A stretch of DNA of 64,000 nucleotides from Flavobacteriales bacterium (GCA_041391785.1 JAWKNI010000011.1:1330-65329), one strand, 5' to 3'; positions 1 to 39,323 are shown, numbered from the stretch's first letter. Numbers and translations: made by a program. Notes: generated by a model not told the origin, from the sequence alone.

Positions 1-3000
1 AGGCGTTGGACGTCGGCCAGCACACGGCTGTTCGCCTCCAACTGGTCACGTAGGTCGGTGTCGTTCCTGCGCAGGTCGGCGTTCTCCAGCTCGAGGGCGT
101 TCACCTTCGCGCTCAATTCCTGCACGGCATTGATCAGCAGAAAGGTGTAGGCCTGGTTGTTCACCTCACGCAGATCGTGGATGTCACCGTGCTCGGTGGT
201 GCTCACCATGTAGGGCGCCAACTCCTCCAACTCCTGGGCGATGATGCCCACCTGCTCTCCTTTTGCTTCAAAGGGCGCATCGGCATTGTAGGTGAACACC
301 ACAGGGCGCATGCGGTCGATGACCGAAAGGCCATCGGTGAACTCACGCCGGACGGTCTTGATGCGGGCATCGCTGAAGACGCCCCAGCTGCCAGTGCTGT
401 TGTTGGCCGTGCCATTCACCGAGAGTTTGGCGGTGGGGCCGTCCGTTCCGATCCCTACAGAACCTCCAGCGGTTATGGCGATCCTCGAGTCGGTGAAGTT
501 CGACCCCGTGTAGAAACGAAGATGGTCGTTCGCGTAGGTGGCACCGATAATGGCCTGCTTGGCTGTTCCATTCTCACCGAACACCAGCGCTACTTCATTG
601 GGACTGTTCGGAAAAGTTCCATTCTGTGCCTCGTTATCCAGGAACAATCCTGTGCGCTGAAGTATGGTACCCCCCGGTGAGGCGCTGATGCTGGAATGGA
701 GCCTTGCGATGGGCGCGTCCGTTCCGACCCCCAGGTAGCCGTTGGATGCCAATCGCATGCGTTCCGGGGTGGTACTCGAGCCGGAATAGAATTTCAAGTC
801 AGAGCCGATGAGGAGCATGGGTCGAAATTGGTTCCCTTCGTTCTTCGCCTCGATGCGCAATCCTTCACTGGAAGAGAAGCGGAACTTGCCCCAATGGGCG
901 TTGGACAAACTCAACCTGAACTCGCTGGCACTGGCATCGCGCACGTCGAGCAGTGCTGAAGGCGCAGCGGTACCGATCCCCACCTTGCCATCCGCCTTGA
1001 TCGTCATACGGTCCGAATTATCGGTGAACAAGGGCAGGTCGAACGCGCCGAACGTACCAATGCCACCTGTGAATCCGCCGGTGGGATCGGGCGCGATCAG
1101 GCTCAACGCGGACCCATCGTCCGTGTCCTGCAGCCGGATCCCGGCACTTGTTCCCGCGATATGAAGCTTGGCGAGCGGCGTGCTGGACCCTATGCCCACG
1201 TTGCCGTTCTGCAGCAAGGTCATTTGCGCATTCCCATTGTTGGTGGCGAATTGGAGCGGGTGGTCGGTGTGGGTCTGCAGGAAAGCTCCATTCGCGTTGT
1301 CCACGTATGTTCCAACGGCGATCGTGCTGTCCAAGCTCCGATGTCCGAAGGCCTGGCCATCTGCCCGGAGGTCCAACAGATGGGTCGGCGTTGCCGTGCC
1401 GATACCCAGATACCCATTGGTATCCACGGTCATCCGCAAGGACCCGGAAGTGAAGAAGGAGAGCGGATGTGCGCTCACGCTACCCAGTTGCATACGTTCG
1501 GCACCCGGTGTGGAACGCGCATCCAGCACACCTTTCACGGCGTTGCTTTTCATCGTGAGGCGGGCGTGTTCTCCGGCATCATCCACCAAGCCCAGGTCCG
1601 TGCCGGTAAGCAGCGCATTCGGGTCACTGGTACCGATGCCGACCTTTCTATCCAGGGTGTACAGCGTGTCCTCTGACATCTCCCAGCCCAAAGTGGTCGT
1701 ACCGAATTGTCCGGTCGCGGGGTTGTAGCCCATGGGCAGGGCCTCGTCGCAGAACAGTTGGATCACCTTCATATCGTCCGGATCACTATCCAGCACATAG
1801 GCGTAATTGCCTGAAAGGGCCACGGAAAGCACATTCGGTCCGAGCGCAAGACCACCTGCGAGGGTGGGCCCCGTTGGGTCACTGATGTCGATCACCTGTA
1901 GCCCGTTGGAATTTTGTGCCACACACGCGTAGTCGCCCGATACGGCCACGGAGTTGGAGCCGGTTCCGATCGCCAGAGCGCCTGCCAGGGTGGGCGTGGT
2001 CGGGTCACTGATGTCGATCACCTTCAGTCCGCTGGCATTTTGCACCACGTACGCATGGTTGCCTGAAACGGTCACGGAGCCGGTGCCTGGTCCGATCCCC
2101 AGAGCGCCAGCCAGGGTGGGCGTGGTCGGGTCACTGATGTCGATCACCTTCAGGTCATTGGAACCGGCATCCACCACATAGGCGTAGCTGCCAGAAACGG
2201 CCAGGGAGATAGGGTTCGATCCAAGTACCAAGCTGCCTGCCTGAACGGGTGAGGCCGGATCGCTGATGTCCATCACGACGAGGGAGTGGGAAGCGAGTTC
2301 GAGGATGTGGACGTAGTTCCCTGATATCGCCACTTTAAGCGCCAATCCTCCGGAGAATGGACCGCCAGCCAGGGTGGGCGTGGTCGGGTCGCTGATGTCG
2401 ATCAACTGGAAGTACCTGGAACCGACTCCCCCTACACAGGCGTAGTTGCTCGAAACGGCCAGGGAGAAATTGCCTGGCCCGACCCCGAAACTGCTTGCCG
2501 AGATCGACCCGGCGGGGTCGCTGATATCGATCACCTCAAGGTCTCCGTCGAACTGGTCCAGCACATAGGCGTAATTGCCTGAAACGGCCACGGCTATTGG
2601 GCTCTGTCCATTATCCAGGCTGGTTGCGATACGGAGGCATGAAATGTCCGGCGCGGGCACGTTGCCATTTCCGAACAAGCCCGCCGCGCTCAACTCCTGC
2701 CAACTCGCGTTGCCATCGGCGTCGCTGGTCAGGATCAGCTTGTCACCCTGGGTACCGTCCTGGTACTTCAGTTTACCGGATACATGCAGCGTGGTGTCCG
2801 GAGAAGCCGTGCCGATACCCACGCGCTTGGCACCATTATGCAATGTATCTGCACTCACCTGCCAGCCTTCCACCGCCACGAACGCACCGGTCACCGGGTC
2901 ATAGGCCAATTGTTGCTGTGCGCTGGGGCAGAAGAGCTCGATCACCTTCAGGTCATCGGAACCGGCATCAGCCACGTAAGCGAAGTAACCCGAAACCGCC

Positions 3001-4470
3001 ACGGATCGTGGGTCCGGCCCTATCGATAGGCTACCACTGAGGACCGGGCTTGCAGGATCGCTGATGTCGATCACCTTCAGATCATCGGCATCACGGTCCA
3101 CCACATAGGCATAGCTGCTGGAAACGACCAAGGAAAATGGTTCTGTTCCTATGCCAATGCTCCCAATGAGAGCTGGGCTTGCGGGACTGCTGACGTCGAT
3201 CACCTTCAGATCGTCGGTATCGGGATCGATCACATAGGCGTAATTGCCAGAAACAGCTACGGATATTGGGAACGTTCCGATCCCGAGGCTGCCAGTGAGC
3301 ACCGGATCAGCCGGGTTGCTGACATCGATCACTTTCAGGTCGTCGGAAGTGATGTCCACTACGTAGGCGTAATTTCCAGAGACGGCAACGAAGATCGGAT
3401 CCGATCCGACCCCGAGGCTGCCGGTCAGCACCGGGCTGGAAGGGCTGCTGATATCGATCACCTTCAGGTCGGAGGTCCCTTGGCCCACCACATAGGCGTA
3501 GCTGCCAGAGACGGCTACACATGCTGGAGCCGGCCCGACCCCGAGGCTGCCACTGAGCACCGGGCTGCCAGGACTGCTGATATCGATCACCTTCAGATCA
3601 CCGGCGCCTTGGCCCACCACGTAGGCGTAGTTGCCGGAGACAGCTACGGATACCGGGAGTGAACCGACCCCCAGGCTACCACTGAGCACCGGACTATCGG
3701 GGCTGCTGATATCGATCACCTGCAGACCTGCGGAAGCAAAGTCCACCACGTAGGCGTAGTTGCCAGAGACCGCGACGGACGTTGGTCCTGTACCTATTCC
3801 CAGGCTGCCGGCAATGCCGAGGCAGGACAGGTCATAACTCGATGCAGGTGGGAGGTTCCCGACACCGAGCAAGATTTCTGCGCTCAAGTCCTGCCAACTC
3901 GCGTTGCCATCGGCATCACTGGTCAGGATCTTCTTGTCGCCCTGGGTTCCGTCCTTCAACTGGAAGGTGCCTTCCACATCCAGGTCATGGCTGGGGGTGC
4001 TGGTACCGATGCCCACCCGCCGGCCATTGCTATGCACGGTGTCACCGCTCAGCACCCAGTCGCCATCATCGGCCATGTCGGCGGTCTTGGCGTGCAAGGC
4101 ATAGGGTACGCTGAGCAATTGCTGGGTGCCCACGCTCGCGTAGCTGCTCCGCCCGCAGGGTCCATCCCCACACCTCCAGGAAGTAGGGCCGGCGCTCCAG
4201 TCGATGGCCGCGAAGGTCTCCGCACCCGGCGTGCCATTGCCCACTTCCGGGAGAAGAGGCCCAGCTGTCGTTCGTGGTCGGGCTGTGCGTCTCGAATACA
4301 CCACCATTGCCGGCCTCCTGGTGCAGCTGGAATTGCACACCGATGGCGGTGTTCACCAGGCATCACCACCGGCATCGCGTGCCACGCCCTGGTAGTTGAA
4401 GGATTCCGGTGTTTGGGCCAGCAGGCTGGTTCCGAGCAGCAGGACGATCGATAGCGCGCAGGTCTCATGT
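1..4470 (-). pseudogene. Very large tail-fiber-like surface protein, >1,450 aa; the 3' end runs off the window start. It has a signal peptide ('LSIVLLLGTSLLAQT'), a 'PESFNYQGVARD' N-terminal region, about 15 repeats of ~40 aa of LVIVD/beta-propeller type ('DLKVIDIS.P..P.L.GSLG.G..P..VAVSGNYAYVV'), and a C-terminal peptidase S74 intramolecular-chaperone domain ('SDARIKTVRREFTDGLSVIDRMRPVVFTYNADAPFEAKGEQVGIIAQELEELAPYMV...') followed by a coiled coil. The body from ~4,255 down to 1 is one open frame. The N-terminal 250 bp (4,200-4,470) needs at least three frame changes.
   Basis: Manual translation of the reverse strand. The repeat unit is visible in the DNA as recurring 'ctgatatcgatcaccttcag'. 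The S74 motif SDxR(I/L)K, the hydrophobic core and the terminal coiled coil were read directly. The 'NYQ(A/G)VARD' start is typical of Bacteroidota tail-fiber-domain proteins. No stop was found in the main frame across more than 4 kb. Confidence 0.7.
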
Positions 4471-4611
4471 CCGTATGGTCTATTCGTTGGTGGTCGATCG
4501 GCAGTACGATCGTGATGGAACAAAGCAGCACCATATGGGCCGCGGCATCAATCGTTGGTTCCAATGAGATCGTGCCGAACCGCGCTGAACCTTTATCTTG
4601 AACGCTGCGTC

Positions 4612-7600
4612 ATGTTCGCGCGTTGAACATCCTCTACCTGCTGCTCTCAGCGTCGGTCTTCGGTCAGTTGATCGAGCAGGAGGTGCGCTACGATGCGGCC
4701 CGCATCACCATCGACGATGGCCTGCCGCAGGGCATGGTGCAGGACATCCTGCAGGACCGGCAGGGCTATCTCTGGTTCACCACCAAGGATGGCCTTGCGC
4801 GCAGCGATGGGTATGCCTTCACCATCTTCCAGCACGACCCCGAGGACCCGGCCAGCATCGCGGGCAACCACAGCGACCTGCTCTTCGAGGACCGCAACGG
4901 CGGCTTGTGGATCGCGGTGTTCGGCGAGGGTCTGGACCGCTACGATGCGCACCGGACGCTTCGATCGTGTGCACTTCCCGGTCGGCACGCCGCGCCGAAG
5001 CCTTTCTGGACGTGGACCGGATGCGTAGAAGGGCCGCAGGGCAGGATCGCGGTTCACCTCGGTCGGGGAATACCTGTACGTGGTGGACCCGAAGGACCCA
5101 GAACTGCTGGCGCAGCCGCACGAACGATGTACCCGAAGAGCGCACATCCCGACGCGGGTCAGCTACTTCGAGTTCGATGCCACTGGCGCGTTATGGGTCA
5201 TGAACAGCGACAGCGTGGTGTGTGATCCATCACTGCGTGGATGAGAACGGATGCTGCCCGTCTGGCGGATCCCTCACCGTTCCACCCGCAATGGGACCCT
5301 GGAGAAACACCCGATGGTGTACTGGCAGCAGGGGCACAAGGTGGTGGTCTCCATACCGTCCATGCTGCTGCTCATCGATACGGACATGCATGCCGTGGAT
5401 ACACTGCACGTTCCTGTTGATGGCCACGTGTGGTTCACGCAGCTGGTGGATGATGCCGGACGCCTCTGGTACCGCACGGACGACAACCGCATCTGGCGCG
5501 TGGACCTGCGCACGGGCCGCTTCGAGCCGCTGCACTTCACCGCCGATGGCAAGGACGTGTATCTGGAGTTCCAGACCGTGCTGTTCCGGTGTCAGGACCG
5601 CAGTGGCAACCTGTGGGGAGGCAGCAAGGGCTACGGCGTGTTCAAGCTGGGCCGCACCAGCGCGCTCGGCGACGCGCCTCGGTGAGATGGACGGCTACTA
5701 CGTGGACGCACTGCATCCTCGGGCACCGCCAGATACGCCATGACGCGCCATGCCTTCCGGGAGGACCCGGCGCCTGCCCCTGGCTGGCTGCGGTACACGA
5801 TCGGCACCACCGTGAACGGCAGGAACTGGATCGGAGCGGTCACCGATACCGGGGCCGCACCTGGGGTGTGCTCGCGGACGGGACGTTCAGCCGGCCGTGC
5901 TGGGTTACCTGGACACGGGAGGCGCCTTCCATACCGCCGACCTCCTGGAGGATGCCCCAGTCGCGTGTTCCATGGCCGTGGGTCGCAGAGTCGGGTGGTA
6001 ACTTCCGGTGGCCGGAGACCTGGAATCTGCCGGTGGACCTGGTGTGCATCGATACTGACGCCATGTACATGTGATCGGGCCACCATTCCTTTCCGGTGGA
6101 TTTCCTGCTCTCGAAGTACTGGCCCATCTCGCAATGGTCGGTGGCACCCGATGGCAGCATCGGATGGCCACCATGGAAGGGCTGCTCACGTTGGATCCGG
6201 AGAAGAACGCCTGGCACCTTCCAGCACGGCCCGCCGATCGACCAGCCTGCCGGGAACCTGCTCTTCTCCCTGTGCCGGACCCGGACAGGCCGGACCACTT
6301 CATATGGGTGGGCACGGAAAGCGCCGGTATGGCGAGGCTGGACAAGCGCACTGGAGTTGCACACGGGTCTCCACCGTCGATGGTCTGCCGAACAACGTGA
6401 TGCGGCATCCTCCCCGATGCGGAGGGACGGCTCTGGGTCGGCACCAATTTGGGCCTTTGCCGCTACGATCCCCGCACAGGGGCCGCGCGCACCTTCACGA
6501 AGGACGATGGCATCGCGGGGAACGAGTTCAACCGCTACGGGTCGCTGGTGCTCCCGGACGGGTCCATGTTCTTCGACGGCATGGACGGCGGCACCTCCTT
6601 CCGACCGGCAGATCTGAAGAGCAGCAATGGACCAAGCCCCACGTTGCTCACGGGCATCCGGCTTGCCACCCGGTCCATTGCCATCCACGAATTGCTTGAT
6701 ACGGCTCGTTCATCCTTGTCGATCACTACCGCACAACGAGCCCTTATCACCTTCCGCTTCGCTATGATGGACCACACGGCGCCGAAGCGCAACACCTTCC
6801 GCTACCGTCTGGTCGGATATACGGATCAATGGATCGACGGCAGCACGCGCAATGAGGCCACCTTCACCAATCTGGACCCCGGCGACTACACCTTCGAGGT
6901 GCAGGGCACCGACCATGAAGGGATGGTCGATCCCCATCTCGCATCCATCCATCTTTCCATCCTGCCGCCTTGGTGGCGCACTTGATAGTTCCGCGCAGCC
7001 TTGGCGCTGCTGATCATGGGCTCCGTGTATGCCTTGTACCGGATCCGTCTTGAGCAACAACTGCGCGGCTCCGTTTGCGGGAGCACATCGCACGCGACCT
7101 GCATGACGAGATCGGCTCCACCCTGAGCAGTGTGGCGCTCTACGGGGCTGTTGCCCGGAAGAAGCTCGCGAACATCGGTCCGGAAGGCGGGCGGCTGCTG
7201 GAACGCATCAGCGAGGCACCACCAGCGCCATGGAATCCATCAACGACATCGTATGGACCGTGAACGCCTCCAAGGACAGCCTGGCCGACCTCGCCGAACG
7301 CATGCGCAGCCGTACCACCCCTTATGCGAAGCACGCGGGGTTACCCTGGACCTGCAGGTGGATGAGGCCTTGTTGCAGGATCGCCTGAACATGGGCCAGC
7401 GCAAGAACCTCTACCTCATCTTCAAAGGAAGCGGTGAACAACGCGATCGAGTATGCCGCGTGCAGCCGCATCTGCCATCCGACTGTCCGGCAGCGGCGGG
7501 CGCCTCACCATGACCATTGCCGATGATGGTCGCGGCTTCGACCCGGAGGTGAACAGCGGTCCGGGACCGGGCGGGAATGGGCTGGGCAACATGCGGGAAC

Positions 7601-7700
7601 GCGGGGCCGAAGCGGGTGGTGTATGTACCATCAGTTCCGAGATCGGCCGCGGCACCACGGTCACCTTCCGCACCCGGGCGGGGACTTGAACGGCGGGCAT
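4612..7700 (+). pseudogene. Sensor histidine kinase. Domains in order: two-component-regulator beta-propeller repeats, a Y_Y_Y domain, a transmembrane helix, a HisKA_3 dimerisation domain ('REHIARDLHDEIGSTLSSVALY') and HATPase_c ('TIADDGRGFDPE...GNGLGNMRERGAEAGG'). It is split across at least 8 frames by indels, including one at the start codon region ('MFAR*' / 'LNILYLLLSASVFGQ').
   Basis: Domain-diagnostic motifs read in successive ORF fragments: 4623, 4693, 5251, 6071, 6449, 7075, 7130 and 7453. Confidence 0.65.
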
Positions 7701-7752
7701 CTCATTGCATCCAATGAGGCGCGGCCCGGAAGCACGATCCTAATTTCGCCCC

Positions 7753-8400
7753 ATGCTGCGCATCGCCATCTTCGACGACCATGCCCAACGGCGGGAGAGC
7801 CTGAGCTGCTGATCGACGCCACCGACGGCATGGTGTGCGTGGGCGCGCCTTCCCCGACTGCCGCGATGTGGTGAAGCACGTGGCTCAATGTGATCGCAGG
7901 TGATCCTCATGGACATCGACATGCCGCATGTGGATGGCGTGGAGGGCGTCACCCTGATCGCAAACAGTTCAAGGATGTGAAGATCCTGATGCAGACCGTG
8001 CTGGAGGACAACGAGCGGCTCTTCGCCTCCATCGTGGCCGGTGCGGATGGTTACCTGCTGAAGCAGACCACGCGAGCGGCTGATCGCGGCCATCCAGGAA
8101 GTACACCAGGGCGGTGCGCCCATGACCCCCACCATCGCCCGCAAGGTGCTGCAGCTGGTGGGTGTCCGCTCAGGAAAGACCGGTGGTGCGCATGACTTCC
8201 ACCTCACCGGGCGCGAGGCAGAGATCCTGGCACTGCTCGTGGACGGACTCAGCTACAAGCAGATCGCCGAGCGCTGCTCCATCAGCTACCCCACGGTGAA
8301 CACGCACATCACGCACATCTATAAGAAGCTGCACGTGGATTCCGTGGCCGCCGCCGTGAAGGTGGCGATGCGAGAAGTTGGTGTGAGTATTCGCTGCGAT
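7753..8400 (+). pseudogene. NarL/FixJ (LuxR-type) response regulator with a REC domain and an HTH_LuxR domain ('LTGREAEILALLVDGLSYKQIAERCSISYPTVNTHITHIYKKLHVDSVAAAVKVAMR'). The REC domain is broken by several frameshifts and stops.
   Basis: 'MLRIAIFDDH...' starts at ATG 7753. 'ILMDIDMPHVDGVEGV' and the HTH were read in different frames. The gene sits immediately downstream of the kinase. Confidence 0.6.
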
Positions 8401-9663
8401 GGCTGCATCACCCTCGCGTTGATGAGCACTTTGCATCCAGATCGTCCATTCAACCATGCGGTGATCCGGCATGTGGATCGTGTCACTGAATCTTGCTCAC
8501 GCGTACGACCCGAGCTGGTGAATCCAGCGGAACGATGCCAGAAGTACGAACCAGGTGGATACTCACCCAGATCGACCTCCACCCTATTTAAGAGCGCACG
8601 ACTTCGCTGCCATGTGAGGCGACCCAGTGCATCCAAGAGTTGCACATCCGCCACCCCGGGTCTCGTGCTGTTCCATTGTACGATCGCCCGGTCCCGGGTG
8701 GGATTGGGGAAGACCGTCACCTGCTGAGCTTCAAACTTTTCGATCCCGATCGCCAACCGCGTGGGCATGGTGCCCGTGATGTAGTGGATCAACCCGCCAA
8801 CGGCGGTTGGTATAGGTCAGCGAACGTACTCCCGTCCGCCGCGATCTCCAACAGGCCGTATTGCCGTTCAAGGTTCCTGCGGCGAAGATGCTGCGACCAT
8901 CCTCGCTCCAGACGGCGTGCTGGTGAAGGTGGCGCTGTCCGTGGGCGCGTTCAGGTGAGCTGCGTCAAGCTGTCCCGTTCAGTTTGATCTTGTAGTAATT
9001 CACCACGTTCAAGCCATATTCCACACCCGCAGCGTAGAGCCCATTACTTCGGCTGAAGAGGATCCATTCGCCATCAGGTGACCACACCGGCCAGGTGTCG
9101 AAGGCGGTATTGGGGATGGGCGTCCGGCCAGTGCCATCGCGGGCCACCGTGAAGAGGATGCGAAGACATTGTGCCCCACCACCAGTCCATCACTCTGCCG
9201 GATGCGCGGTGCATCGTCATCACAGATGCCGCTCATGGTCCCAAGTACCGTGGCGTTATCGAAGCTGTTGTTGTAGATGTTGCAGCCATAGGAGACCGCC
9301 GAAGTGCTATCACTTTCGAACAGGTCGTATCCTACAAGGAAGTCGTTATTGTTGAAGAGGACGAACTCGCTGCCGCCGTTAACGGTGCGACGGACCCATT
9401 GCCCGCTGTTCAAAAGGTTACCGAACCAGCCGTTCGCCAAGGATCCTTTGATGTAGAGCAAATAACGCCCATTCATCACCAACTGCGGGATGGTGGCGGT
9501 ATCCAGCAGCATGGCATCCATACCCAGGCCGTCGTTGATGCGGATGAGCGTGGTCGCCCTCCATGCGTGAGTAGATCAGGTGGTCCTGATAGTCCTGTGC
9601 AGACATCATGGAACAGGTGAAAGCTGCAGTAGCAAGAACGAGGCTGCGCATGGATGACTTCAT
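8400..9663 (-). pseudogene. Secreted protein with a signal peptide ('MKSSMRSLVLATAAFTCSMMSAQ') and a C-terminal T9SS type-A sorting domain ('VTVFPNPTRDRAIVQW...GSYFW'). It is frameshifted at least 3 times.
   Basis: The pieces are ORFs 9418-9663, 9009-9521, 8965-9147 and 8319-8792, all on the minus strand. Confidence 0.5.
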
Positions 9664-9699
9664 GAGGTGTCAAGTGTTGTTCCGTACTACAATGACGTT

Positions 9700-12031
9700 C
9701 AATGGGCGACTTGCGCGGGAAGTGTGAGCGGGGTCCATCCTGCACTGTAAGTCGAAGGAAATAGGTGCCGTTCGCCAACCCGCTCAGGTCGAATGTGACG
9801 GGTGCATTGAACGCGAGCGCGGAGGTCTGCACCATGCGTCCCATCGTATCCATGAGCTTCACATGGACCGTTCGTCCTTCCATCGCCAACCATTGGACCG
9901 TGACAACGTCGCGCGTGGGGTTCGGGAAGAGGATCGGCTTGACGTCCAGGTTCTCTCCGGCTATCACGGTGCTGAGATCGTGGGTCTGCTGGAAACCCTG
10001 CGTGGTGATGAACGTGGCGCTTGTCGCGGTGCTCACGATGAGATCGCCCGGTGTATTCCAATTGGATGGATCCGGCCGAAGCCAGCGTACCGCCGCAGGA
10101 TGCGAGCGGCGTTCCAACTGCACCTGGGGATGCGCGATGCAAGCCAGGAGAATAGCTGAACAGGTGATCTCTGCTCTCATGGTCTCTGTGTACTCAAAGT
10201 TTCCACCAAGGACCGCAGCCGGACGATCTCGGATGCGTCGTTCTTCGTCCCTCGCCTGCAGTTCATCCACCATGACCGCCAGTTCCTGCACGGCTTTCAC
10301 AGGGGCACAACAGGGTCTCGTAGCTCAGGGAGTACACCTCCTTGTCGCTCTTCGGCAGGTGCAGGCCGCTGAAGTCATAGCCTGTCTCCTTGGCGGCCTG
10401 TTCCACTTCCTGCGCCAGAAAGCCACTGAAGAGGATCTTTTCGATGTCGTACTTCTCCGGGTAGTCCGCGTGGGCTTGTTCCCGGTCAGTTCGGCGTGCC
10501 GGTCGATATCGCGATGGTAGGTGACCGGTCGCAGACGCGTAATGAAATCCAGCCCGTGCACGCCGTCGCCAACCATCCGCTTCACGCGTGCATCCGAGAG
10601 AAGGTCGACCAGGTGACATTGCCGCCATTCCAGGTCGTGCTCAGGTTGCCGATGAATGCCTGATCACTGAACGCGTTCAAGTAACCATAGTTGCCGATAC
10701 TGATCGTGTTCGTGAAGCTGGCTGTCGTTCCGGAACCCCAACCAACGGCTACATTATCGTCCCCGGTCACATTGTCGCTCAGCGCGAGGTTCCCAATGGC
10801 CGTGTTGAAGTATCCTGAGGTGTTCTCGGATTGAGCTTGATGCGAGCCGTTCTCCCGGTCGCGTTCTTCAATGCATCGTTGCCGATGGCGACATTGAAAC
10901 TCCATGAGTTGAACATGACGCCTGTCTACCAAGGCCAACATGGGTGCGGTAGTGTTGTTCAGCAACGCGAACTGTCCGATCGCGGTGTTGTGCGATCCGT
11001 GGTATTGTAGCGCAAGGTGAGGGCCCCGACACCGCAATTGCCTTGCCCCGTCGTGTTGAGGGCGGAGTGCCTCCGAACCGATAGCCGTGTTCTCGTCGCC
11101 GTTGCTGAATTCAAGCGCGTTTCGCCGAGCGCTGAGTTCCCGTAGCCGGTGGTGTTCGTGAAAAGGCTTCGGTATCCCACTGCCGTGTTCCCGGATGCGC
11201 TCCCGTTGGCCGCAAGAGCCAACGAACCGATCACTGTGTTCCCGCTTGCCATGTTCGCGTACAAGGCACCGGTACCGATCGCCGTGTTGTCATTGCCGGT
11301 CGTGTTGAATGAAAGGGCGGCCTGGCCCACGGAAGTATTGCTGGATCCTGAACTGTTGTATCGTCCAGCATAACCACCCACCGCGGTGTTGTTCCCGCCC
11401 GTTGTGTTGGACGTTAACGCATTGGCCCCGAAGGCACTGTTCACCGTTCCGGATGTGTTGTCCAGCATGGCATTCGCGCCCAGGCTCGTATTTCCTGTGC
11501 CGACCAGATCGATCCTTCCGGCCTCAACGCCGGCCACTTTGAACACCAGCGGCTGCGCGTCGCTCGTACCGATGAAGTCCGTGTTGGGATCCGTACCCGA
11601 ATTGCCATTCAACCCCCAACCGGTCGAACCACTTCCGCTGCTTTCCGCATACTTGGCATAAGGCACGCTCACCAGTTGCTGGGCACCCAGGTCCACATAC
11701 CCACCTCCGGGTTCGCTTCCACCTGCAGCCAGTAGCTGCCGGTGCCATGCGATGCCAGCTATCAGAGCCGTTCACCCCACGGTGCCACCGCCCACCTGCG
11801 CGTTGAACACGCCGAAGGCATTCGTGGTGACAGCATGCGTCTCGCGATACACGTTGGTACCGGTGGCACTTCCCTGCCGCACGGTAAAGCGCACCGTCAG
11901 GCCCGAGTTCGCGAGGATGTTGCCGCCCCATCGCGCGCGGCCGCCTGGTAGTTCATCAGGTCAGGCGACTGAGCATGGAGCAGGGCCAGGGCCAGCATGA
12001 GGGACAGCGCAAGAGTGTTGAGGTGCTTCAT
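9700..12031 (-). pseudogene. Second tail-fiber-like protein. It has a signal peptide plus 'MNYQAAARDG', Asn/Thr-rich 'NTAIG/NTAVG' fibre repeats, a peptidase S74 chaperone domain ('SDARVKRMVGDGVHGLDFITRLRPVTYHRD...YPEKYDIEKILFSGFLAQEVEQAAKETGYDFSGL') and a T9SS type-A C-terminal domain ('ILFPNPTRDVVTVQW...NGTYFLRLTVQDG'). There are at least 5 frameshifts.
   Basis: Fragments 11897-12082, 11524-11931, 10959-11696, 10582-11037, 10325-10585, 10263-10628 and 9476-10300 on the minus strand chain together into one architecture. Confidence 0.6.
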
Positions 12032-12150
12032 CGCCTGGGATTGATGTTCGCCTGTGCCAAAGCACATACGATCGTCCCGCACGATCCTTCACATCTTGAT
12101 GCTACCTGCCTGGTCTCGATCGATCGCACACGGCAGCGCACCTTTGTTGG

Positions 12151-14010
12151 ATGATGCGGAGCCTTGTCCTCATGATCCTGTTGTTGCTCTGTGCTGGCGA
12201 TGCGCTCCATGCCCAACGCACCGACCTGGACAGCCTTGTGCAGGCCATCGGCCGCTGGGAGAAGGATCGTGAGCCCGGTGATACGGCGGGGCTGATCCAG
12301 ATGAACCGCGCAGCAGTGGTCTACACCATGCGCATGAAGGGTGACGAGGTGGTGGAGATGGCCCGGCGCACGGCCGCGGTCGCGTCGAAGGAAATGGGGG
12401 CGCTTCCTGAAGGTGCGTTGCGCAAAGGGGTGAGGAAGCAGCTGATCATCGCGCTCAATTTCCTGGGGGACGGGTTGGTGTACCAGGGTGATGCGTCCGG
12501 AGGGATGGAAACCCTGCAGCGATGTTACGCGCTCTCCTGGAAGCAGGTGATCGGTCGAACGCGGCCACGGCATGCATGCGGCTCGGTTACGCCTGCCGCA
12601 AAGCGCAGGACCGGAAGTGCGCCCGGGATTGGCTCCGCAAGGGCCTGGCCGTGCTGCCGCCTGCGGATACAACGGGACGAGTGACCGCCCACGCCGAGAT
12701 GGGCAATGTGCTCTACGGTCTGGGCGACATGGACATTGCACGCTATCACTGGCAGGAGAGCATCCGGATCGGCGAGCAGCGCCGCTCCTTCAGCCCGCTC
12801 TTCGATGCCTACAGCGGCATGGCTCTGCTCGCGCTACGATGCGGCGCGAATGACGAAGCGAACAAGTTCCTGCGGAAGGCTCGCGCGTCCTTCGAGCAGG
12901 ACGAGCAAACAGGGCAGTGCCATGCTCAATGCCCTCGAGGGATTCAGCGCATCGCCCTGCGCGATGCGCAAGGCACTGCCGTTCCTTGCGCGCGCGGATT
13001 CCTTCGCCGTGGCGCACGGCAAGCACGGCGCCCGCTTCTTTGCGCAGCAGTTCATAGCGGTCTCCCATGCGTTGCGAGGCGATATGAACGCCCAGCCTGA
13101 GCGCGGCGGACTCGGCAGCCTCGGCCTTGATCGCCGACCTCGGCATCGAGGAGGCCAAGCGTACCGCCTTCGCACAGGCCCGATACGAGCGATGTGGCCC
13201 AGCGCCTCGCGGATGCACGATTGCAGGCGCAACGCAGGCTCAACGCGGTACTCTTCGTGGCCGCAACAGCACTGGTGATCGCAGCTTTGGTCCTGTTGGA
13301 ACTCTACCATAGGTCGAAGCGGACTAGCCGCTCACTACATGCAGCGAATGTGGAATTGGTACGGACCCGGGAGAAGCTCGTGAAGGCCGAGCGCGAGCAC
13401 GAGGCGGAGACCCTGCGCACCCGTATCGCCCGGGACATCCACGATGAATTGGGCGGCAGCCTCACGAAGGTGGCGCTCCTCGGCGAACTGCTCGCGAGTG
13501 GCGGTGGTGCACAGGCCGAGAAGAAGTATCGCTGAGAGCCTTGTCTGAGCATGCGCGCAGCGTGAAGGCGGGGCTGAGCGACGTGGTCTGGGCCGTGGAC
13601 CCGACGTCCGATACCGCTCAAGGCTTGTTCGATCGCCTCACCGACCGCTTGGTCGAACTGTATCGCCGGATCTTCCAGCTACGCTCACATTGGACCTGAA
13701 GGCCGACCACCCTTCTCGCGCCATATCCCCGGATGTGAAGCGGGCCTTGTACCTCATGATCAACGAAGCAGCGACTAATGCGCTCAGACATGCGAAGGCA
13801 AGGATGGTCATGGTCTCCTACTGATCGAGAGCGACCGCCATGAGGTGCGTATCACTGACGACGGATCGGTTTCACGCCAAGGACTGCCAGTGGCAAAGGC
13901 AGCGGGCTGTCGAACATGCGGCATCGTATGGCAGCCATTGGCGCCGGGATCGATGTGGAGAGCGCACCGGGCAGGGGCACCACCATCATCGCGAGCGGAG
14001 CACTGTGAGG
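12151..14010 (+). pseudogene. Sensor histidine kinase with a signal peptide, TPR-like periplasmic repeats, a transmembrane helix, HisKA_3 ('RTRIARDIHDELGGSLTKVALLGELL') and HATPase_c ('LYLMINEAATNALRHA...GTTIIAS'). It is frameshifted.
   Basis: ORFs 12151, 12522 and 13194, then kinase-domain motifs read in shifted frames between 13540 and 14010. Confidence 0.55.
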
Positions 14011-14042
14011 ACGTGAAGCTCCTGCGATGTGGCGAGTGCGGT

Positions 14043-14712
14043 CAGGATCGTGGGCGATAAGCGCATACGCACAGCGATCGTGGAGGATGACCGCGACTTG
14101 CGCGCCATCCTCGTGGCCGGGCTGCGAAGGACCCACGTGTCGACGTGCTCGCCGTGTACGCCAGCGGCGATGCCTTCCTGAAGGAGTTGGAACACCTGGA
14201 CGCGGATGTGGTGATCGTGGACATCAATATGCCGGGCACGAACGGAATTGAATGTGTGCGGCTGGCCAACCCCGTAAACCGGCCACGCAGTTCCTCATGA
14301 GCACGGTGTTCGAGAATGCGGCCTACATCTACCAAGCGCTCTGTGCAGGCGCCACAGGGTACTTGGTGAAGAGCGCGCCAAGCATGGCGCTGGCCGATGC
14401 AGTGTGCGAGATCACGCAGGCGGCTCACAGACACCCGCGATCGCCCGGCTGGTGGTCCTCTCCATGCAAGGTGATCCCGCCGCCACCATGCATCAGAACT
14501 GCTCACCGATCATTGAGAAGGAAGTGCTCGATGGCCTGGCCGCCGGACTCATGTACAAGGAGATCGCCGCGAAAGGCGATGTGAACATCAATACGGTTCG
14601 CTCTCACGTCCGCAGCATCTATGAGAAGCTGCAGGTGCACTCGCGGCGGAGGCTGTGCGCAAGGCGTTCCCAGGGAGGGTGGGGATCGTCTTCCTTCTCC
14701 GCACTGATCGAC
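14043..14712 (+). pseudogene. LuxR-type response regulator (REC 'KRIRTAIVEDDRDLRAIL...DADVVIVDINMPGTNGIECV' plus HTH_LuxR 'LDGLAAGLMYKEIAAKGDVNINTVRSHVRSIYEKLQV'). There are at least 3 frameshifts; one is a 1-nt loss near 'RRTH/DVDVL'.
   Basis: Manual three-frame translation of 14040-14712. Confidence 0.55.
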
Positions 14713-14959
14713 AGGAGGTGCATCCTCTGATTCGATCCCAAGAGATGCGGATGCAGCCATGGGAACCGGCACCAGGACCACATGCCCGCCACGATGATCC
14801 TCGGTGGGCGAGAACTCATTGACGCGACCAGGCACGCTGACCTGGGGATAGCGGGGGCGCGGCACGCTGACCCGGCCGCCACTTTCAGTTCGTCGATTCC
14901 CTTTGAGCTGCCATTTCAAGCCAATCAGGAGTGATCAGATGATCGCTGTGCAGGATCGT

Positions 14960-15070
14960 ACTGCACCATCAGCTACCCCACGGTGAACACGCACATCACC
15001 CACATCCACAGAAGCTTCACGTGGATTCCGTGGCCGCTGCTGTGAAGGTGGCGATGCAGGAGGGATTGGT
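14960..15070 (+). other. Relic of a LuxR-type HTH C-terminus ('SYPTVNTHITHIHRSFTWIPWPLL..' / 'KVAMQEGLV'). It is about 85% identical at the DNA level to 8281-8380.
   Basis: Direct alignment of 14969-15060 with 8281-8372. This is an internal partial duplicate of the response-regulator gene. Confidence 0.6.
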
Positions 15071-15102
15071 GAGGGCGTTCCGGGCTTCGAATTCCAGACG
15101 GG

Positions 15103-15654
15103 TTATAGTGGTCCGGCCAGGATGACCGAGTACCCCCCCCCAACGCAAAGCGGCCCCGGTTCCCCGGGGCCGCTGCCATCAGACGCGCTGCTGCGCGGTA
15201 GCTGCGTGGTCCTTAGCGCACCATCGACTGCGCCGGATGGCTCCCACGCTGGTACCTGCCGTGCCGAGTGGCCGACACGCGGAACCAGCTGGGCTTCGCC
15301 CGCATCAAGCCCGGAGACGGAATACCTGGAGCGGGTGGTCACACCCACCAGTTCCCAGGCGTTCGCATCATCCGGTGAAACGCGGTTCACCTGAACGTGG
15401 TAGGTCACCGCACCACGCGTGGGGTCCCAGTCCAGGCTCACCTTGCCGGGATGGGCGGTCAGCACCGCGCGCAATCCCTTGGGTGTGCCGGCTCGGGCAT
15501 CGGCGTGTTCGGCTGCCGCACCGGTAAAACCGCTGCTCAGGATCGCCAGTTCGTTGCCCTCGGCAACGCTGCTCACGTAACCAGCAGCTGGTCCAGCAGT
15601 TGCTTCAGTTCGAAAAGCGGGCCTTGCGGATCGCGAGTGCCGTGCGCCCACCAT
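15103..15654 (-). CDS. Hypothetical protein, possibly a fibronectin-III-like fragment ('KVSLDWDPTRGAVTYHVQVNRVSPDDANAWELVGVTTRSRYSVSGLDAGE').
   Basis: ORF only. It is GC-rich and contains a C9 run and a GC hairpin, so it may be spurious. Confidence 0.25.
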   Translation of the reverse strand: MVGARHSRSARPAFRTEATAGPAAGYVSSVAEGNELAILSSGFTGAAAEHADARAGTPKGLRAVLTAHPGKVSLDWDPTRGAVTYHVQVNRVSPDDANAWELVGVTTRSRYSVSGLDAGEAQLVPRVGHSARQVPAWEPSGAVDGALRTTQLPRSSASDGSGPGEPGPLCVGGGYSVILAGPL

Positions 15655-16364
15655 CCACCGCTGGTGATGGCTGTTTCCAGCGCCTCACGCGCCGCCGCGA
15701 TGGCGGCCACAGAGGGCACGGGATCGGGAAGGCGGCATGCCGGTCATCCGTTGTTCGTGGAAACGCGCACGGTCCACCAATCCATTGGGGCGCAGGCGCG
15801 AGAGGTTCTTGATGATGCTGCTCATGAGAAAGGGGTCTTCAGGTCGTGGTCCAAAAGGCACGTCCATGCCCTACCCTGGGGCGTTTGTTGTACTTCGTGG
15901 TTCCAAAGGCGGGACGGATGTGATCACCCGACCCGGTGCTACGCCTTGCCGGCGGCGGGCGTGGCAGGCAGGTACAGGTGGCGCCAGCCACACGCTGTGC
16001 CGCTTCTCCGATTGTGCCAGAGTCAGCAGGAGCGGCGACAAGATGATCGGCCATGTGCCGGCATAGAGCTGCCGACCCATCAGCACGAAATGCACACCCA
16101 ACAGATAGAACGCCTCCTTCGGTCGGTCCAGCAACTTGCAGCGGATGCAGACGATCGCGAAGTCCTGGTCGAAAGCCGCCAACGGGCTATCCCGTGCGGG
16201 CATCTTGCCGAGGAACAGGAGCTTAAGAACGAACTCCAAATATGCGGTGTAGACCGCCGCTGCGTGAACCTGTCCGGTGCGATAAGCGCTTCGGCCAAGC
16301 GCAAGGCACTGCGATCGAAGGTCACGAGAACCTGCTCAAAGACCACCTGACTCAGAACGTCCAT
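15590..16364 (-). pseudogene. Frameshifted hypothetical gene ('MDVLSQVVFEQVLVTFDRSALRLAEALIAPDRFTQ...LEFVLKLLFLGKMPARDSPLAAFDQDFAIVCIRCKLLDRPKEAFYLLGVHFVLMG...LFELKQLLDQLLVT*'). It may be a mobile-element remnant, but I cannot place it in a family.
   Basis: Four ORF fragments on the minus strand (16080-16364, 15871-16239, 15839-16054, 15685-15867) join by frame changes. Confidence 0.3.
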
Positions 16365-16374
16365 CGTCGATACG

Positions 16375-16745
16375 CGGCGCGTCCGCTTTTCGGAGAGAGT
16401 CGCCTGTTTCTCGGCGTGAGTCGTCTGCTTCTCGGAAAAAGTCGCCTGTTTCTCGGCGTGAGTCGTCTGCTTCTCGGAAAAAGTCGCCTGCTTCTCGGCG
16501 TGAGTCGCCCGCTTCTCGGGAAAAGTCGCCTGCTTCTCGGCGTGAGTCGCCCGCTTCTCGGGAAAAAGTCGCCTGCTTCTCGGCGTGAGTCGTCTGCTTC
16601 TTGGAAAAAGTCGCCTGCTTCTCGACGAGAGTTGCCTGCTTCTCGGAAAAAGTCGCCCGCTTCTCGACGTGAGTCGCCCGCTTCACAGGAAATGTCGCCT
16701 GCTTTCCAGATGAGTTGCCTGCTTTTCGACGCAAGTCGCCTGCTT
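16375..16745. repeat. Tandem direct repeat of about 17.5 copies of a 21-bp unit. Two alternating subtypes ('gtcgcctg(t/c)ttctcggcgtga' and 'gtcgtctgcttctcggaaaaa') form a 42-bp super-unit.
   Basis: The units can be counted directly in the sequence. There are no unique spacers, so this is not CRISPR. The array lies immediately upstream of the minus-strand gene that starts at 16364. Confidence 0.9.
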
Positions 16746-17148
16746 TTGGTAGAGGATCGTCCGTCAAAAGCCGCAATTCGTCCGGTGAAATGCGGGGAGT
16801 CGTCCGCTTCCTTATGAGCCAGTCGTATCAGGGCTTTGATCCAACGGTCTACGGACTTCATTGGTCGATCGCCGAACGGTCTTCACCGTCCCCTGCACCG
16901 CCTTGCGCGGGCGGCGCACCGCCCGGTATCCAGGGCCGCAGTCGCAATCACTCGTTGACCGTTTCTTCGTCATGATCGTCGGTAGTAAGATTTATGTCAG
17001 AATGGTCATATGCGGTAGGTGGCGTGATGCATTCTTTCCACGATCGATCGTGCGTATGTCAGGGTGTTAGAAGACCTCTCCTACCCTTTTGATCCTGGCC
17101 GATCACTGGCCACGTTGAATACCGCATCTCCAACGCGATGAACGTGTA

Positions 17149-17505
17149 GTGCCGGATCAACTGGCCGGCCGAACGGTGCACGACCGATCGGCCAGCGACG
17201 TATTCAACAGCGGCCAGCCCCATGCCCGTTGTGCGAATGGTCCAACCCGATATCTTGTCGGGCAGATGGAAATGGAGCAGAAGATGGGATCGACACTGAC
17301 GAAGAACGAAGAGCGCTTGCTGGAACTACTGGCGGAACATGACAGCCTCGGGCCGGTCGCCGCTGCGGCCGGCCGGCTGGTGATCCCGATGCGGATCCTC
17401 GATGCATCCGTGTTGGATGTGCACCACCTGCGGGATGGTGTGTACAACGCAACGGTGTCCACGGGCGATGAACGAAAGTCCCGCCGATTCGTCGTGCAAC
17501 ATTAG
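17149..17505 (+). CDS. Hypothetical small protein.
   Basis: ORF only; nothing recognisable. Confidence 0.2.
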   Translation: MPDQLAGRTVHDRSASDVFNSGQPHARCANGPTRYLVGQMEMEQKMGSTLTKNEERLLELLAEHDSLGPVAAAAGRLVIPMRILDASVLDVHHLRDGVYNATVSTGDERKSRRFVVQH

Positions 17506-35949: not shown

Positions 35950-35960
35950 CACCGTTGGCC

Positions 35961-39318: not shown

Positions 39319-39323
39319 ACCTC

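What the first reader, a model, noticed from the sequence alone, without database searches (positions are those of the whole stretch)
1..12031. Two giant tail-fiber-like proteins with peptidase S74 chaperone domains; one S74 domain is followed by a T9SS C-terminal domain
Both genes combine a signal peptide, a 'NYQxxARD' N-terminus, long repeat regions (LVIVD-like propeller repeats in one, Asn/Thr-rich fibre repeats in the other) and the self-cleaving S74 intramolecular-chaperone domain (SDARIK/SDARVK). In the second gene the S74 domain is followed by a T9SS type-A sorting domain. S74 auto-cleaves at the Ser of SDxRxK, so the T9SS domain would be released with the chaperone. This implies an ordered process of export, trimer folding and auto-release.
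Basis: partly seen in the sequence, partly recalled or inferred. Interest (0 to 1): 0.55.

Follow-up and report, generated by a model that had tools for sequence, protein, structure and literature searches.

The report
Surface-fibre genes, not a T9SS fusion
Two genes for phage-tail-fibre-like surface proteins with a self-cleaving folding domain are really there, but the secretion tag said to be fused to one of them belongs to a separate small downstream gene and looks fused only because this stretch of the sequence is full of one-base errors.

Summary
Both genes lie on the minus strand. Gene 1 (4468 to beyond position 1) has an N-terminal NYQxxARD domain, two 7-blade LVIVD blocks, a Bdellovibrio-MAT-like fibre and a Peptidase_S74 domain (SDARIK). 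Gene 2 (12031 to 10177) has the same N-domain, sixteen 17-residue Asn/Thr repeats and an S74 domain (SDARVK). It is 624 aa, so it is not giant.

The headline claim fails here. In four independent assemblies of the same species, and in two species at 64-67% identity, the fibre gene stops at ...STQRP*. The T9SS C-terminal domain lies in a separate 161-aa ORF with its own signal peptide, and its ATG overlaps the fibre stop (ATGA). In the window a single inserted C (~10235) joins the two frames.

That insertion is one of 139 indels in window 3891-17220. They hit all 12 genes and roughly equal the substitutions outside one divergent gene. This points to assembly error, not biology.

The genes are new members of a known kind: S74-terminated trimeric fibres annotated "tail fiber domain-containing protein". 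Genuine S74-to-CTD fusions do exist in more distant Bacteroidota relatives. Similar small signal-peptide/module/CTD genes also flank S74 fibre genes in other lineages. I found no paper on either pattern, and these are the only leads worth following.

The parts
1..4468 (-). Gene 1: giant S74-terminated fibre protein, at least 1515 aa. It runs off the left edge of the window, and about 8 codons are probably missing.
   Evidence: The open frame 4352..3 is 1450 aa. The start codon was mapped from the L001 ortholog. The close homolog P0123 ends ...ADVQRLLDARAAR, 8 residues beyond the window edge, with no CTD.
4090..4468 (-). Gene 1 signal peptide and conserved NYQGVARD...SVPYA N-terminal domain. 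In the window this part is broken by 9 indels.
   Evidence: It is 48% identical to the N-domain of gene 2.
2913..3830 (-). Gene 1 LVIVD block 1 (7 repeats of 43 aa).
   Evidence: Pfam LVIVD E 7e-115. Repeat map. TRF periods of 129 and 258 nt.
1698..2645 (-). Gene 1 LVIVD block 2 (about 7 repeats). Like block 1, it is preceded by the connector motif DGTQGDKxILTSDADGNASWQ.
393..1655 (-). Gene 1 fibre shaft with repeated (V/L)GIGTxxPxxxL capping-loop motifs, resembling Bdellovibrio MAT fibres.
   Evidence: phmmer against the PDB: 8ond_A Bd2133 E 4.6e-10, plus 8oml and 8ojn. Motif positions. The motif is described in PMC10769870.
3..374 (-). Gene 1 S74 intramolecular-chaperone domain and C-terminal coiled coil. 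The Ser codon of SDARIK is at 374..372.
   Evidence: Pfam PF13884 at 41.9 bits. MYRF ICA 7dc3 E 1.3e-6.
4612..7689 (+). Reg_prop/Y_Y_Y HisKA_3 sensor kinase (1036 aa in L001). In the window it carries 34 frameshifting indels.
7753..8386 (+). LuxR/GerE-type response regulator (212 aa in L001), frameshifted in the window.
8483..9606 (-). PD40-repeat protein with its own T9SS CTD (378 aa in L001). It is the third gene of the conserved fibre operon and is frameshifted in the window.
9699..10180 (-). Separate 161-aa ORF made of a signal peptide, a ~45-aa module (...GDLIVSTA...TQGFQQ) and a T9SS type-A CTD. Its ATG overlaps the stop of gene 2 (ATGA). It has 3 indels in the window.
10235..10235 (-). 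Single inserted C. It shifts the gene 2 frame into the frame of the small ORF and creates the apparent S74-CTD fusion.
   Evidence: Alignment A1 of the window against four assemblies. Event list.
10177..12031 (-). Gene 2: 624-aa S74-terminated fibre. It consists of a signal peptide, an NYQAAARD N-domain, sixteen 17-aa NTAxG repeats, S74 (the Ser codon of SDARVK is at 10597..10595) and a coiled coil, and it ends ...LVETLSTQRP*. In the window it has 19 indels, 16 of them frameshifting.
12151..14682 (+). Divergently transcribed TPR/HisKA_3 kinase (12151-14008) and GerE response regulator (14050-14682). This pair is conserved next to the fibre gene in L001-L006.
3891..17220 (.). Indel-dense patch of the window: 139 indel events relative to L001, about 1 per 96 nt.

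Best explanation
The region is a chromosomal cluster from an uncultured Flavobacteriales bacterium. It encodes two Sec-exported, probably trimeric, surface fibre or adhesin proteins of the S74-terminated type. Both share an N-terminal NYQxxARD beta-sandwich domain. Their variable middles differ: gene 1 has two 7-blade LVIVD propeller blocks plus a MAT-like beta-helical shaft, and gene 2 has a 17-residue Asn/Thr beta-solenoid. Both end in a C-terminal Peptidase_S74 intramolecular chaperone with an intact Ser/Lys motif. By inference from endosialidase, T5 pb1, MYRF and Bdellovibrio Bd3182, this domain nucleates trimer folding and then cuts itself off at the Ser of SDARxK. Neither fibre carries a T9SS C-terminal domain. 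The CTD seen after gene 2 belongs to an independent, translationally coupled 161-aa protein (signal peptide, small module, type-A CTD). A PD40/CTD protein follows it, and two-component regulators flank the operon. The fused reading is an artefact. A 13.3-kb patch of the window (3891-17220) is riddled with 1-2-nt indels of the long-read-error type, and one of them (an inserted C at ~10235) joins the two frames. SHOWN: the domain content, the separate ORF in six other assemblies, and the indel pattern. INFERRED: trimerisation, autocleavage, surface location, and the route across the outer membrane, which is unknown.
For: The intact ortholog P0001 (96% identical, 624 aa) ends ...STQRP and carries only PF13884. 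In four independent assemblies (GCA_041391865.1, JGI 3300009779, GCA_035399445.1, ERZ27257452) a 161-aa Por_Secre_tail ORF starts 4 nt before the fibre stop. The same ATGA overlap, with textbook signal peptides (MRALVLLLGWAVLHGATAQ and MKAAWIILFALLLQSVAAQ), is found in two species whose fibre is only 64-67% identical. Alignment A1 shows the window alone has an extra C 55 nt before the stop. Window 3891-17220 differs from L001 by 139 indels: 100 deletions and 39 insertions, with 72 adjacent to homopolymers. They are spread evenly over 12 genes and the spacers. Outside the divergent kinase, indels roughly equal substitutions (102 versus about 109), and gene 2 has 19 indels against 16 substitutions. 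GC3 phase switches run at 4 per kb in the patch and 1-2.7 per kb elsewhere. Pfam finds LVIVD and S74 in gene 1 and S74 in frame-corrected gene 2. The two N-domains are homologous, as are the two S74 domains. Gene 1 matches the solved Bdellovibrio MAT fibres and the MYRF ICA domain. S74 self-cleavage at SDxxxK in a cellular fibre has been shown experimentally for Bd3182 (PMC10769870). The rest of the window carries T6SS-like, ABC-transporter and T9SS-cargo genes and nothing that scored as phage.
Against: The source reads of the window are not available, so I cannot prove the indels are errors rather than real mutations in this strain. The exact window proteins are not in the public collection. 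No experiment bears on autocleavage, trimer state or localisation for these proteins. Foldseek on the AF2 monomer model of P0001 found no significant structural neighbour, with E at or above 0.05. The S74 assignment for gene 2 therefore rests on sequence: 29-30 bits, the motif, and homology to gene 1. How a fibre without a CTD crosses the outer membrane is unexplained.
Confidence: 0.87

Rival explanations
1. One reading: gene 2 is a genuine S74-to-T9SS-CTD fusion. It would be exported by the T9SS, and the chaperone plus CTD would be released together by S74 autocleavage.
For: In the window as written, minus frame 3 is open from 10324 to 9479 and contains both the end of S74 and Por_Secre_tail. 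Real fusions of this type exist in distant relatives.
Against: The read-through depends on one inserted base that is absent from four other assemblies of the same species. The same gene has 15 further frameshifts upstream, so no such polypeptide could be made from this sequence. The downstream ORF has its own start codon and signal peptide, conserved across species. In real fusions the CTD follows the coiled coil directly, without the signal peptide and module found here.
Confidence: 0.02
2. The indels are real. In this strain the whole 13-kb fibre and regulator locus would be a decaying pseudogene cluster.
For: The indels are confined to one patch, while gene 1's 4.35-kb body and most of the remaining window have long intact ORFs. 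Deletion bias (100 versus 39) is also typical of bacterial pseudogene decay.
Against: An indel-to-substitution ratio of about 1:1 at roughly 1% divergence is far above what I would expect from natural decay (my judgement, not a measured comparison). Every one of the 12 genes is hit at the same density as the intergenic spacers. Half of the events are adjacent to homopolymers. The patch boundaries coincide with the limits of homology to other strains, which is what gap-filling with uncorrected long reads across a strain-variable junction would produce (inference).
Confidence: 0.07
3. The genes are prophage tail-fibre or tailspike genes rather than cellular surface proteins.
For: S74 is best known from phage tailspikes, and NCBI names the orthologs 'tail fiber domain-containing protein'.
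Against: Both proteins have Sec signal peptides. Their neighbours are two-component regulators and T9SS cargo proteins, and no phage structural or replication genes appear in the gene tables of L001-L006 or among the ten largest ORFs of the rest of the window. The family is very large in cellular genomes and metagenomes, with 46,064 50%-identity clusters, and often occurs in tandem arrays. Bdellovibrio MAT fibres set the precedent for cellular S74 fibres.
Confidence: 0.03
4. This extends the best explanation rather than replacing it. The small signal-peptide/module/CTD protein would work in trans as a T9SS-dependent partner of the CTD-less fibre, acting as carrier, anchor or assembly factor. 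It would be the split counterpart of the fused S74-CTD proteins.
For: The ATGA translational coupling is conserved in three species-level lineages. Homologous small module+CTD ORFs lie directly next to S74 genes, on the same strand, in seven further GTDB species (L028, L036, L038, L054, L060, L075, L081). L057 has a module with a type-B CTD. Fused S74-CTD relatives give a Rosetta-stone type hint.
Against: About 90% of the surveyed S74 fibre genes have neither a fused nor an adjacent CTD detectable with my home-made HMM. Of three reverse look-ups of the module family, one showed no fibre-like gene nearby, one hit a contig end, and one lay in a different fibre-like cluster. Bdellovibrio displays S74 fibres, and to my knowledge it lacks a T9SS. 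No interaction data exist.
Confidence: 0.2

Closest known systems
Bdellovibrio bacteriovorus MAT (mosaic adhesive trimeric) fibres, S74 subgroup, e.g. Bd3182 (Caulton et al. 2024, PMC10769870)
   Same: The layout matches: signal peptide, conserved beta-rich N-terminal domain of roughly 110-130 aa, long fibre with VGI(G/N)TxxPxxxL capping-loop motifs, and a C-terminal S74 domain with SDxxxK. Gene 1 matches solved MAT fragments by sequence (8ond E 4.6e-10, also 8oml and 8ojn).
   Different: The host is a Flavobacteriales bacterium, and nothing here shows it to be a predator. Gene 1 inserts two LVIVD propeller blocks. Gene 2 uses a 17-residue Asn/Thr solenoid and has no PDB sequence match. Homology of the NYQxxARD domain to the MAT N-domain was not tested.
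Phage C-terminal intramolecular chaperone domains (Peptidase S74): K1F endosialidase (3GW6), T5 pb1 (4UW8), GA-1 gp12
   Same: The Pfam PF13884 match is above the cut-off. The Ser...Lys motif sits at the fibre/chaperone junction, and the domain is at the C-terminus of a fibrous protein.
   Different: These are cellular, signal-peptide-bearing proteins with no virion context. Cleavage has not been demonstrated.
MYRF ICA domain (7dc3)
   Same: There is a direct sequence match to the gene 1 S74 region (E 1.3e-6), and VGIGTDGPTAKL aligns with VGINTDRPDEAL.
   Different: MYRF is a eukaryotic membrane-bound transcription factor with an unrelated function.
T9SS type-A CTD cargo (Pfam Por_Secre_tail, TIGR04183)
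   Same: The 161-aa ORF and the PD40 protein each have a signal peptide and a terminal CTD scoring above the cut-offs.
   Different: The fibres themselves have no CTD. The 161-aa cargo is unusually small, and apart from the CTD it carries only a ~45-aa module with no Pfam match.
Trimeric autotransporter adhesin head repeats (YadA/Hep_Hag). JGI annotates some homologs as 'trimeric autotransporter adhesin'.
   Same: Both have short Asn/Thr/Gly/Ala-rich repeats of the NTAxG type, and the AF2 model of the gene 2 ortholog gives a beta-solenoid.
   Different: The repeat period is 17 residues, whereas to my recollection YadA-type head repeats are about 14. P0001 gives no Pfam YadA/Hep_Hag hit even at E 10. 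There is no C-terminal membrane anchor, and S74 takes that position.

Membership tests
Peptidase_S74 / C-terminal intramolecular chaperone domain | Match to PF13884 above the gathering score | tested here: met
   Gene 1 scores 41.9 bits against a cut-off of 22. Frame-corrected gene 2 scores 29.0 bits and its ortholog P0001 scores 29.7 bits. The uncorrected frame pieces of gene 2 give no hit.
Peptidase_S74 / C-terminal intramolecular chaperone domain | Catalytic Ser and Lys in an S-D-x-x-x-K motif at the start of the domain | tested here: met
   SDARIK in gene 1 (aa 1327 of the open frame, nt 374..357) and SDARVK in gene 2 (nt 10597..10580). The S, D, R and K columns are invariant in alignment A2 of 12 family members.
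Peptidase_S74 / C-terminal intramolecular chaperone domain | Autoproteolytic release of the chaperone after trimer folding | not testable with these tools
   This needs expression of wild type versus a Ser-to-Ala mutant. The precedent is Bd3182 S782A (PMC10769870).
Peptidase_S74 / C-terminal intramolecular chaperone domain | Structural similarity to solved S74 domains | tested here: inconclusive
   The AF2 monomer of P0001 has mean pLDDT 77. Foldseek against the PDB found nothing below E 0.05 and no S74 entry among the 50 matches listed. A monomer model of an intertwined trimer is a poor probe.
T9SS type-A CTD cargo (the claim for gene 2) | CTD at the extreme C-terminus of the same polypeptide | tested here: not met
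   The fibre stops 4 nt after the ATG of the CTD-bearing ORF in L001-L006. The fusion in the window is caused by a 1-nt insertion.
T9SS type-A CTD cargo (the 161-aa ORF) | N-terminal signal peptide and a terminal Por_Secre_tail/TIGR04183 match above the cut-off | tested here: met
   PF18962 scores 45 bits (cut-off 27) and TIGR04183 scores 37.4 bits (cut-off 23) at residues 85-150 of 161. Signal peptides were judged by eye from the orthologs, because no predictor was available.
Bdellovibrio-type MAT fibre family | Sequence similarity to solved MAT fibres and the presence of the capping-loop motif | tested here: met
   This holds for gene 1 only: 8ond_A E 4.6e-10, 8oml_A 2.2e-5, 8ojn_C 8.2e-5, and (V/L)G(I/V)G(T/S) motif copies along the protein, most of them in the shaft. 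Gene 2 has no PDB sequence hit.
Bdellovibrio-type MAT fibre family | Conserved ~130-aa beta-rich domain directly after the signal peptide, homologous to that of the Bd MATs | not tested
   A conserved ~105-aa N-domain is present, and the AF2 model gives a beta-sandwich with pLDDT 85-92. No Bdellovibrio N-domain sequence was at hand to compare.
LVIVD repeat beta-propeller (PF08309) | Multiple LVIVD repeats above the cut-off | tested here: met
   E 7.3e-115 with 12 stretches. The repeats have a 42-43-aa period and form two blocks.
Trimeric autotransporter adhesin | YadA/Hep_Hag head repeats and a C-terminal YadA anchor | tested here: not met
   Pfam gives no hit other than S74 for P0001, even at E 10. 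The C-terminus is an S74 domain plus a coiled coil.

The most novel reading that the evidence does not exclude
In Bacteroidota, S74-terminated fibres may be a class of T9SS-dependent surface structures in which the sorting signal comes in one of two forms. In the first, it is supplied in cis, placed after the self-cleaving chaperone. S74 autocleavage rather than the PorU sortase would then separate the mature trimer from its CTD. At least about 30 distinct natural fusions exist, and nearly all keep SDx[RK]xK. In the second, it is supplied in trans by a small, translationally coupled signal-peptide/module/CTD protein, as in this locus. The module+CTD protein would be a previously undescribed adaptor or anchor family.
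Probability: 0.2. Interest if true: 0.6.

Novelty: new member of a known kind. Interest (0 to 1): 0.27.

Why it matters
For this window the result is mainly a correction. The apparent S74-CTD fusion is a frameshift artefact, and a 13-kb patch of the sequence cannot be trusted for ORF calls. The two genes add ordinary members to a very large and almost unstudied family of cellular S74 fibres. A search with one family member found 46,064 clusters at 50% identity, and the only experimentally studied cellular examples I found are the Bdellovibrio MAT fibres.

Two side observations could matter. First, real S74-to-T9SS-CTD fusions exist elsewhere. They pose a genuine mechanistic puzzle, because the self-cleaving chaperone lies between the cargo and its export signal. 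Second, small module+CTD genes recur next to CTD-less S74 fibre genes. Either could reveal how these fibres reach the cell surface in Bacteroidota. I found no paper that addresses this question.

Tried and rejected
1. Plus-strand ORFs in 1-4500 look open but are the mirror image of the LVIVD repeats. They were rejected after the six-frame view.

2. Pfam on raw single-frame pieces of gene 2 gives no S74 hit. I needed stitching and the ortholog.

3. I first assumed PF26696, precomputed on many homologs, was the NYQxxARD domain. This was rejected. P0001 lacks PF26696, and the family consensus shows a different N-domain in those homologs. The local Pfam copy gave no PF26696 match on P0030, which carries that precomputed label.

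4. I looked for YadA/Hep_Hag in gene 2. There is no hit, even at E 10.

5. Foldseek of the AF2 P0001 monomer against the PDB gave only weak Ig-like matches to the N-domain and nothing significant.

6. I tried to identify the source assembly by exact look-up of a clean window protein. It is not on record.

7. The 1867-aa gene 1 ortholog did not appear in the protein search, where all listed hits were under 1000 aa. The C-terminus of gene 1 was therefore inferred from the partial homologs P0122, P0123, P0126 and P0127.

8. The reverse test of the module family found only 32 hits through the word index, and 3 context look-ups gave mixed results. The link between the module and S74 genes is not established as general.

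9. Literature searches for S74 or intramolecular chaperone combined with T9SS or Bacteroidetes returned nothing relevant. The 'intramolecular chaperone' hits concerned subtilisin propeptides.

10. The prophage explanation was rejected on gene context and signal peptides.

Full report
WHAT IS IN THE SEQUENCE

The region has no long ORF on either strand as written. The longest ORF with a start codon is 319 aa. A six-frame view shows that the real genes of the finding lie on the minus strand.

Gene 1 starts at about 4468 and leaves the window at its left edge. From 4352 to 3 one frame is open for 1450 codons. Pfam finds LVIVD there (E 7e-115, 12 stretches) and Peptidase_S74 (E 1.3e-10, 41.9 bits against a cut-off of 22) at residues 1327-1383, beginning SDARIK.

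A motif map of gene 1 shows the following order:
- a signal peptide and an NYQGVARD domain;
- two blocks of about seven 43-residue LVIVD repeats, each preceded by the connector DGTQGDKxILTSDADGNASWQ;
- a roughly 420-residue shaft with repeated (V/L)GIGTxxPxxxL motifs;
- the S74 domain and a coiled coil.

The close partial homolog P0123 ends eight residues beyond the window edge, without a CTD. Gene 1 therefore almost certainly ends just outside the window.

In the window it is cut into at least six frame pieces.

THE ORTHOLOG SETTLES THE HEADLINE CLAIM

I stitched the C-terminal pieces of gene 2 to the downstream CTD and searched with the result. This retrieved P0001, a 624-aa 'tail fiber domain-containing protein [Flavobacteriales bacterium]'. 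It is 96% identical but covers only the first 56% of the query. P0001 ends ...LQARDEERRSEIVRLRSLVETLSTQRP and carries only PF13884.

P0001 is encoded on four independent assemblies: two NCBI MAGs, one JGI metagenome and one ENA metagenome. In each, a separate 161-aa ORF with Por_Secre_tail starts 4 nt before the fibre stop. This is the ATGA overlap typical of translational coupling.

An alignment of the junction (A1) shows that the five sequences agree at every aligned position across the junction, except that the window has one extra C about 55 nt before the stop, plus two 1-nt deletions and a substitution a little upstream. That C puts the S74 frame into the frame of the small ORF.

The split is ancient and not an annotation accident. 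In two species whose fibre is only 64-67% identical (L005 in a 3.66-Mb contig, and L006), the same 159-161-aa ORF follows with the same ATGA overlap. It has clear signal peptides there, MRALVLLLGWAVLHGATAQ and MKAAWIILFALLLQSVAAQ.

WHY THE WINDOW LOOKS BROKEN

Window 3891-17220 aligns to L001 at about 96% identity. A global alignment gives 139 indel events, against 340 substitutions of which 231 fall in one divergent part of the sensor kinase. There are 100 deletions and 39 insertions, and nearly all are 1-2 nt. Seventy-two are adjacent to homopolymers. They are spread evenly, at about 1 per 96 nt, over all 12 genes and the spacers.

Gene 2 alone has 19 indels, 16 of them frameshifting, and only 16 substitutions. 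The small ORF has 3 indels, and the first 585 nt of gene 1 have 9. An indel-to-substitution ratio near 1 at about 1% divergence is not what evolution produces. It is the signature of poorly polished long-read sequence.

Outside the patch the sequence looks clean. Gene 1's 4.35-kb body is intact, ORFs of 740-860 aa are intact further on, and GC3 phase switching drops from 4 per kb to 1-2.7 per kb. The patch ends exactly where homology to the other strains ends. That fits a strain-variable junction bridged by uncorrected long reads, but this is an inference. I could not find the source assembly. Even if the indels were real, gene 2 would be a dead gene and not a fusion protein.

WHAT THE GENES ARE

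The two N-terminal domains are homologous (48% identity, E 5e-35), and so are the two S74 regions (30% identity, E 5e-11). Frame-corrected gene 2 scores 29 bits on PF13884, and it has sixteen 16-17-residue NTAxG repeats.

An AF2 model of P0001 (mean pLDDT 77) shows three parts: a beta-sandwich N-domain, a regular beta-solenoid and a helical S74 end. Foldseek found no significant neighbour.

The gene 1 shaft matches solved Bdellovibrio fibres by sequence (8ond Bd2133 E 4.6e-10, also 8oml and 8ojn), and its S74 part matches the MYRF ICA domain (E 1.3e-6).

Caulton et al. 2024 (PMC10769870) define the MAT family by four features: a signal peptide, a conserved beta-rich N-domain, a long trimeric fibre with capping loops, and in 13 of its 21 members an S74 tip with SDxxxK. 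They also show self-cleavage for Bd3182. The two genes here fit that description, so I regard MAT fibres as the closest studied relatives.

The genes are cellular and not prophage-borne. The evidence is the Sec signal peptides, the flanking two-component systems conserved in L001-L006, the T9SS cargo neighbours, and T6SS-like genes elsewhere in the window.

LIKELY MECHANISM

Four steps are proposed. Only the presence of the signal peptides in step 1 is shown; the rest of that step and steps 2-4 are inferred.
1. The signal peptides are present, which implies Sec export.
2. The C-terminal S74 domains trimerise and template the fibre. This is inferred from the family.
3. The Ser/Lys dyad of SDARxK cuts off the chaperone and coiled coil. 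This is inferred; the motif itself is present.
4. The N-domain holds the fibre at the cell surface. This is speculative.

How the fibres cross the outer membrane is unknown, because neither has a CTD.

Natural S74-to-CTD fusions do exist:
- Among 222 motif-bearing homologs from two searches, 10 carry a terminal type-A CTD 45-60 residues after the S74 helix. Pfam confirms this for P0094 and P0055.
- Among 114 S74 ORFs in 79 loci from GTDB species representatives, 3 are fused (L062 twice, L084).
- An exhaustive search with P0094 found 46,064 50%-identity clusters related to the family. Of the top 150, 140 were new to the session, and among those 17 further distinct fusions appear; 16 of them keep SDx[RK]xK.

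The split layout recurs as well. Small ORFs with a signal peptide, a ~45-aa module (consensus ...GG...YxIGEP...TQGFxQP) and a CTD lie on the same strand as an S74 gene in several species. They are directly downstream in L036, L054, L060 and L081, and directly upstream in L028, L038 and L075. L057 has the module with a type-B CTD 1.5 kb downstream of the S74 gene.

Most S74 genes, about 90%, show neither layout, and many sit in tandem arrays. Reverse look-ups of the module family gave mixed contexts. I found no paper linking S74 domains to the T9SS.

VERDICT

The S74 fibre genes are real and ordinary members of a large known family. The S74-CTD fusion in this window is an artefact of a single-base insertion inside an error-dense patch. 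The general idea survives only as a lead in other genomes.

Noticed in passing
window 3891-17220: This 13.3-kb patch carries 139 small indels relative to four other assemblies of the same species. The indels are deletion-biased and half are adjacent to homopolymers. Every gene in the patch is frameshifted, while the flanks look clean and are not homologous to the flanks in the other strains. It looks like uncorrected long-read sequence bridging a strain-variable junction.
   Followed up: yes
window 9699-10180 (-); L001:11872-12357; L005:7905-8390; L006:7800-8279; also L028, L036, L038, L054, L060, L075, L081, L057: A small protein family (~120-180 aa) consists of a signal peptide, a ~45-aa module (...GG...YxIGEP...TQGFxQP) with no Pfam match, and a T9SS CTD. 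Its genes sit directly next to S74 fibre genes on the same strand in many Bacteroidota lineages. In this lineage the start overlaps the fibre stop (ATGA).
   Followed up: partly
P0055, P0059, P0083, P0088, P0094, P0159, P0213, P0225, P0234, P0239; L062:1252-3117 and 3114-5117; L084:837-4469; 17 clusters: Genuine single-polypeptide fusions of an S74 domain, a coiled coil and a T9SS type-A CTD occur in more distant relatives. Nearly all keep the SDx[RK]xK motif. I found no paper describing this.
   Followed up: partly
window 1-3891 versus L001:18221-21875: The body of gene 1 varies between strains. The L001 ortholog is 1867 aa, with LVIVD repeats in three blocks and a collagen-like Gly-Pro-rich stretch. 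The window copy has two LVIVD blocks. DNA similarity stops at 3891, although the N-terminal 190 codons are about 96% identical.
   Followed up: partly
window 8483-9606 (-): A PD40-repeat protein with its own T9SS CTD (weak in one of the three lineages) is the conserved third gene after the fibre and the small CTD ORF in all three species-level lineages examined (L001, L005, L006).
   Followed up: partly
window 16383-16745: There is a tandem repeat with a 21/42-nt period (about 8-17 copies) inside a small ORF (orf110 in L001). It causes off-diagonal BLAST hits and the 42/43-nt indel pair in the alignment.
   Followed up: no
window 39315-41852 (+), 54254-56044 (-), 60182-62653 (-), 35685-37916 (+): Genes resembling Bacteroidota-type T6SS components are present (TssR VWA domain, a weak TssF match, a ClpV/ClpB-like AAA+ ATPase). 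There is also another protein with a T9SS CTD.
   Followed up: no
L086:1239-3643: In another Flavobacteriales MAG a 640-aa protein with a Phage_depo_C domain is followed directly by a 158-aa Por_Secre_tail ORF. A module-only 79-aa gene, a CHU_C protein and PorP/SprF lie nearby. This is the same 'fibre plus small CTD ORF' layout with a different C-terminal domain.
   Followed up: no
L020, L031, L056, L012, L013, L045 and others: S74 fibre genes of this family often occur as tandem arrays of 2-4 paralogs with different repeat regions.
   Followed up: no
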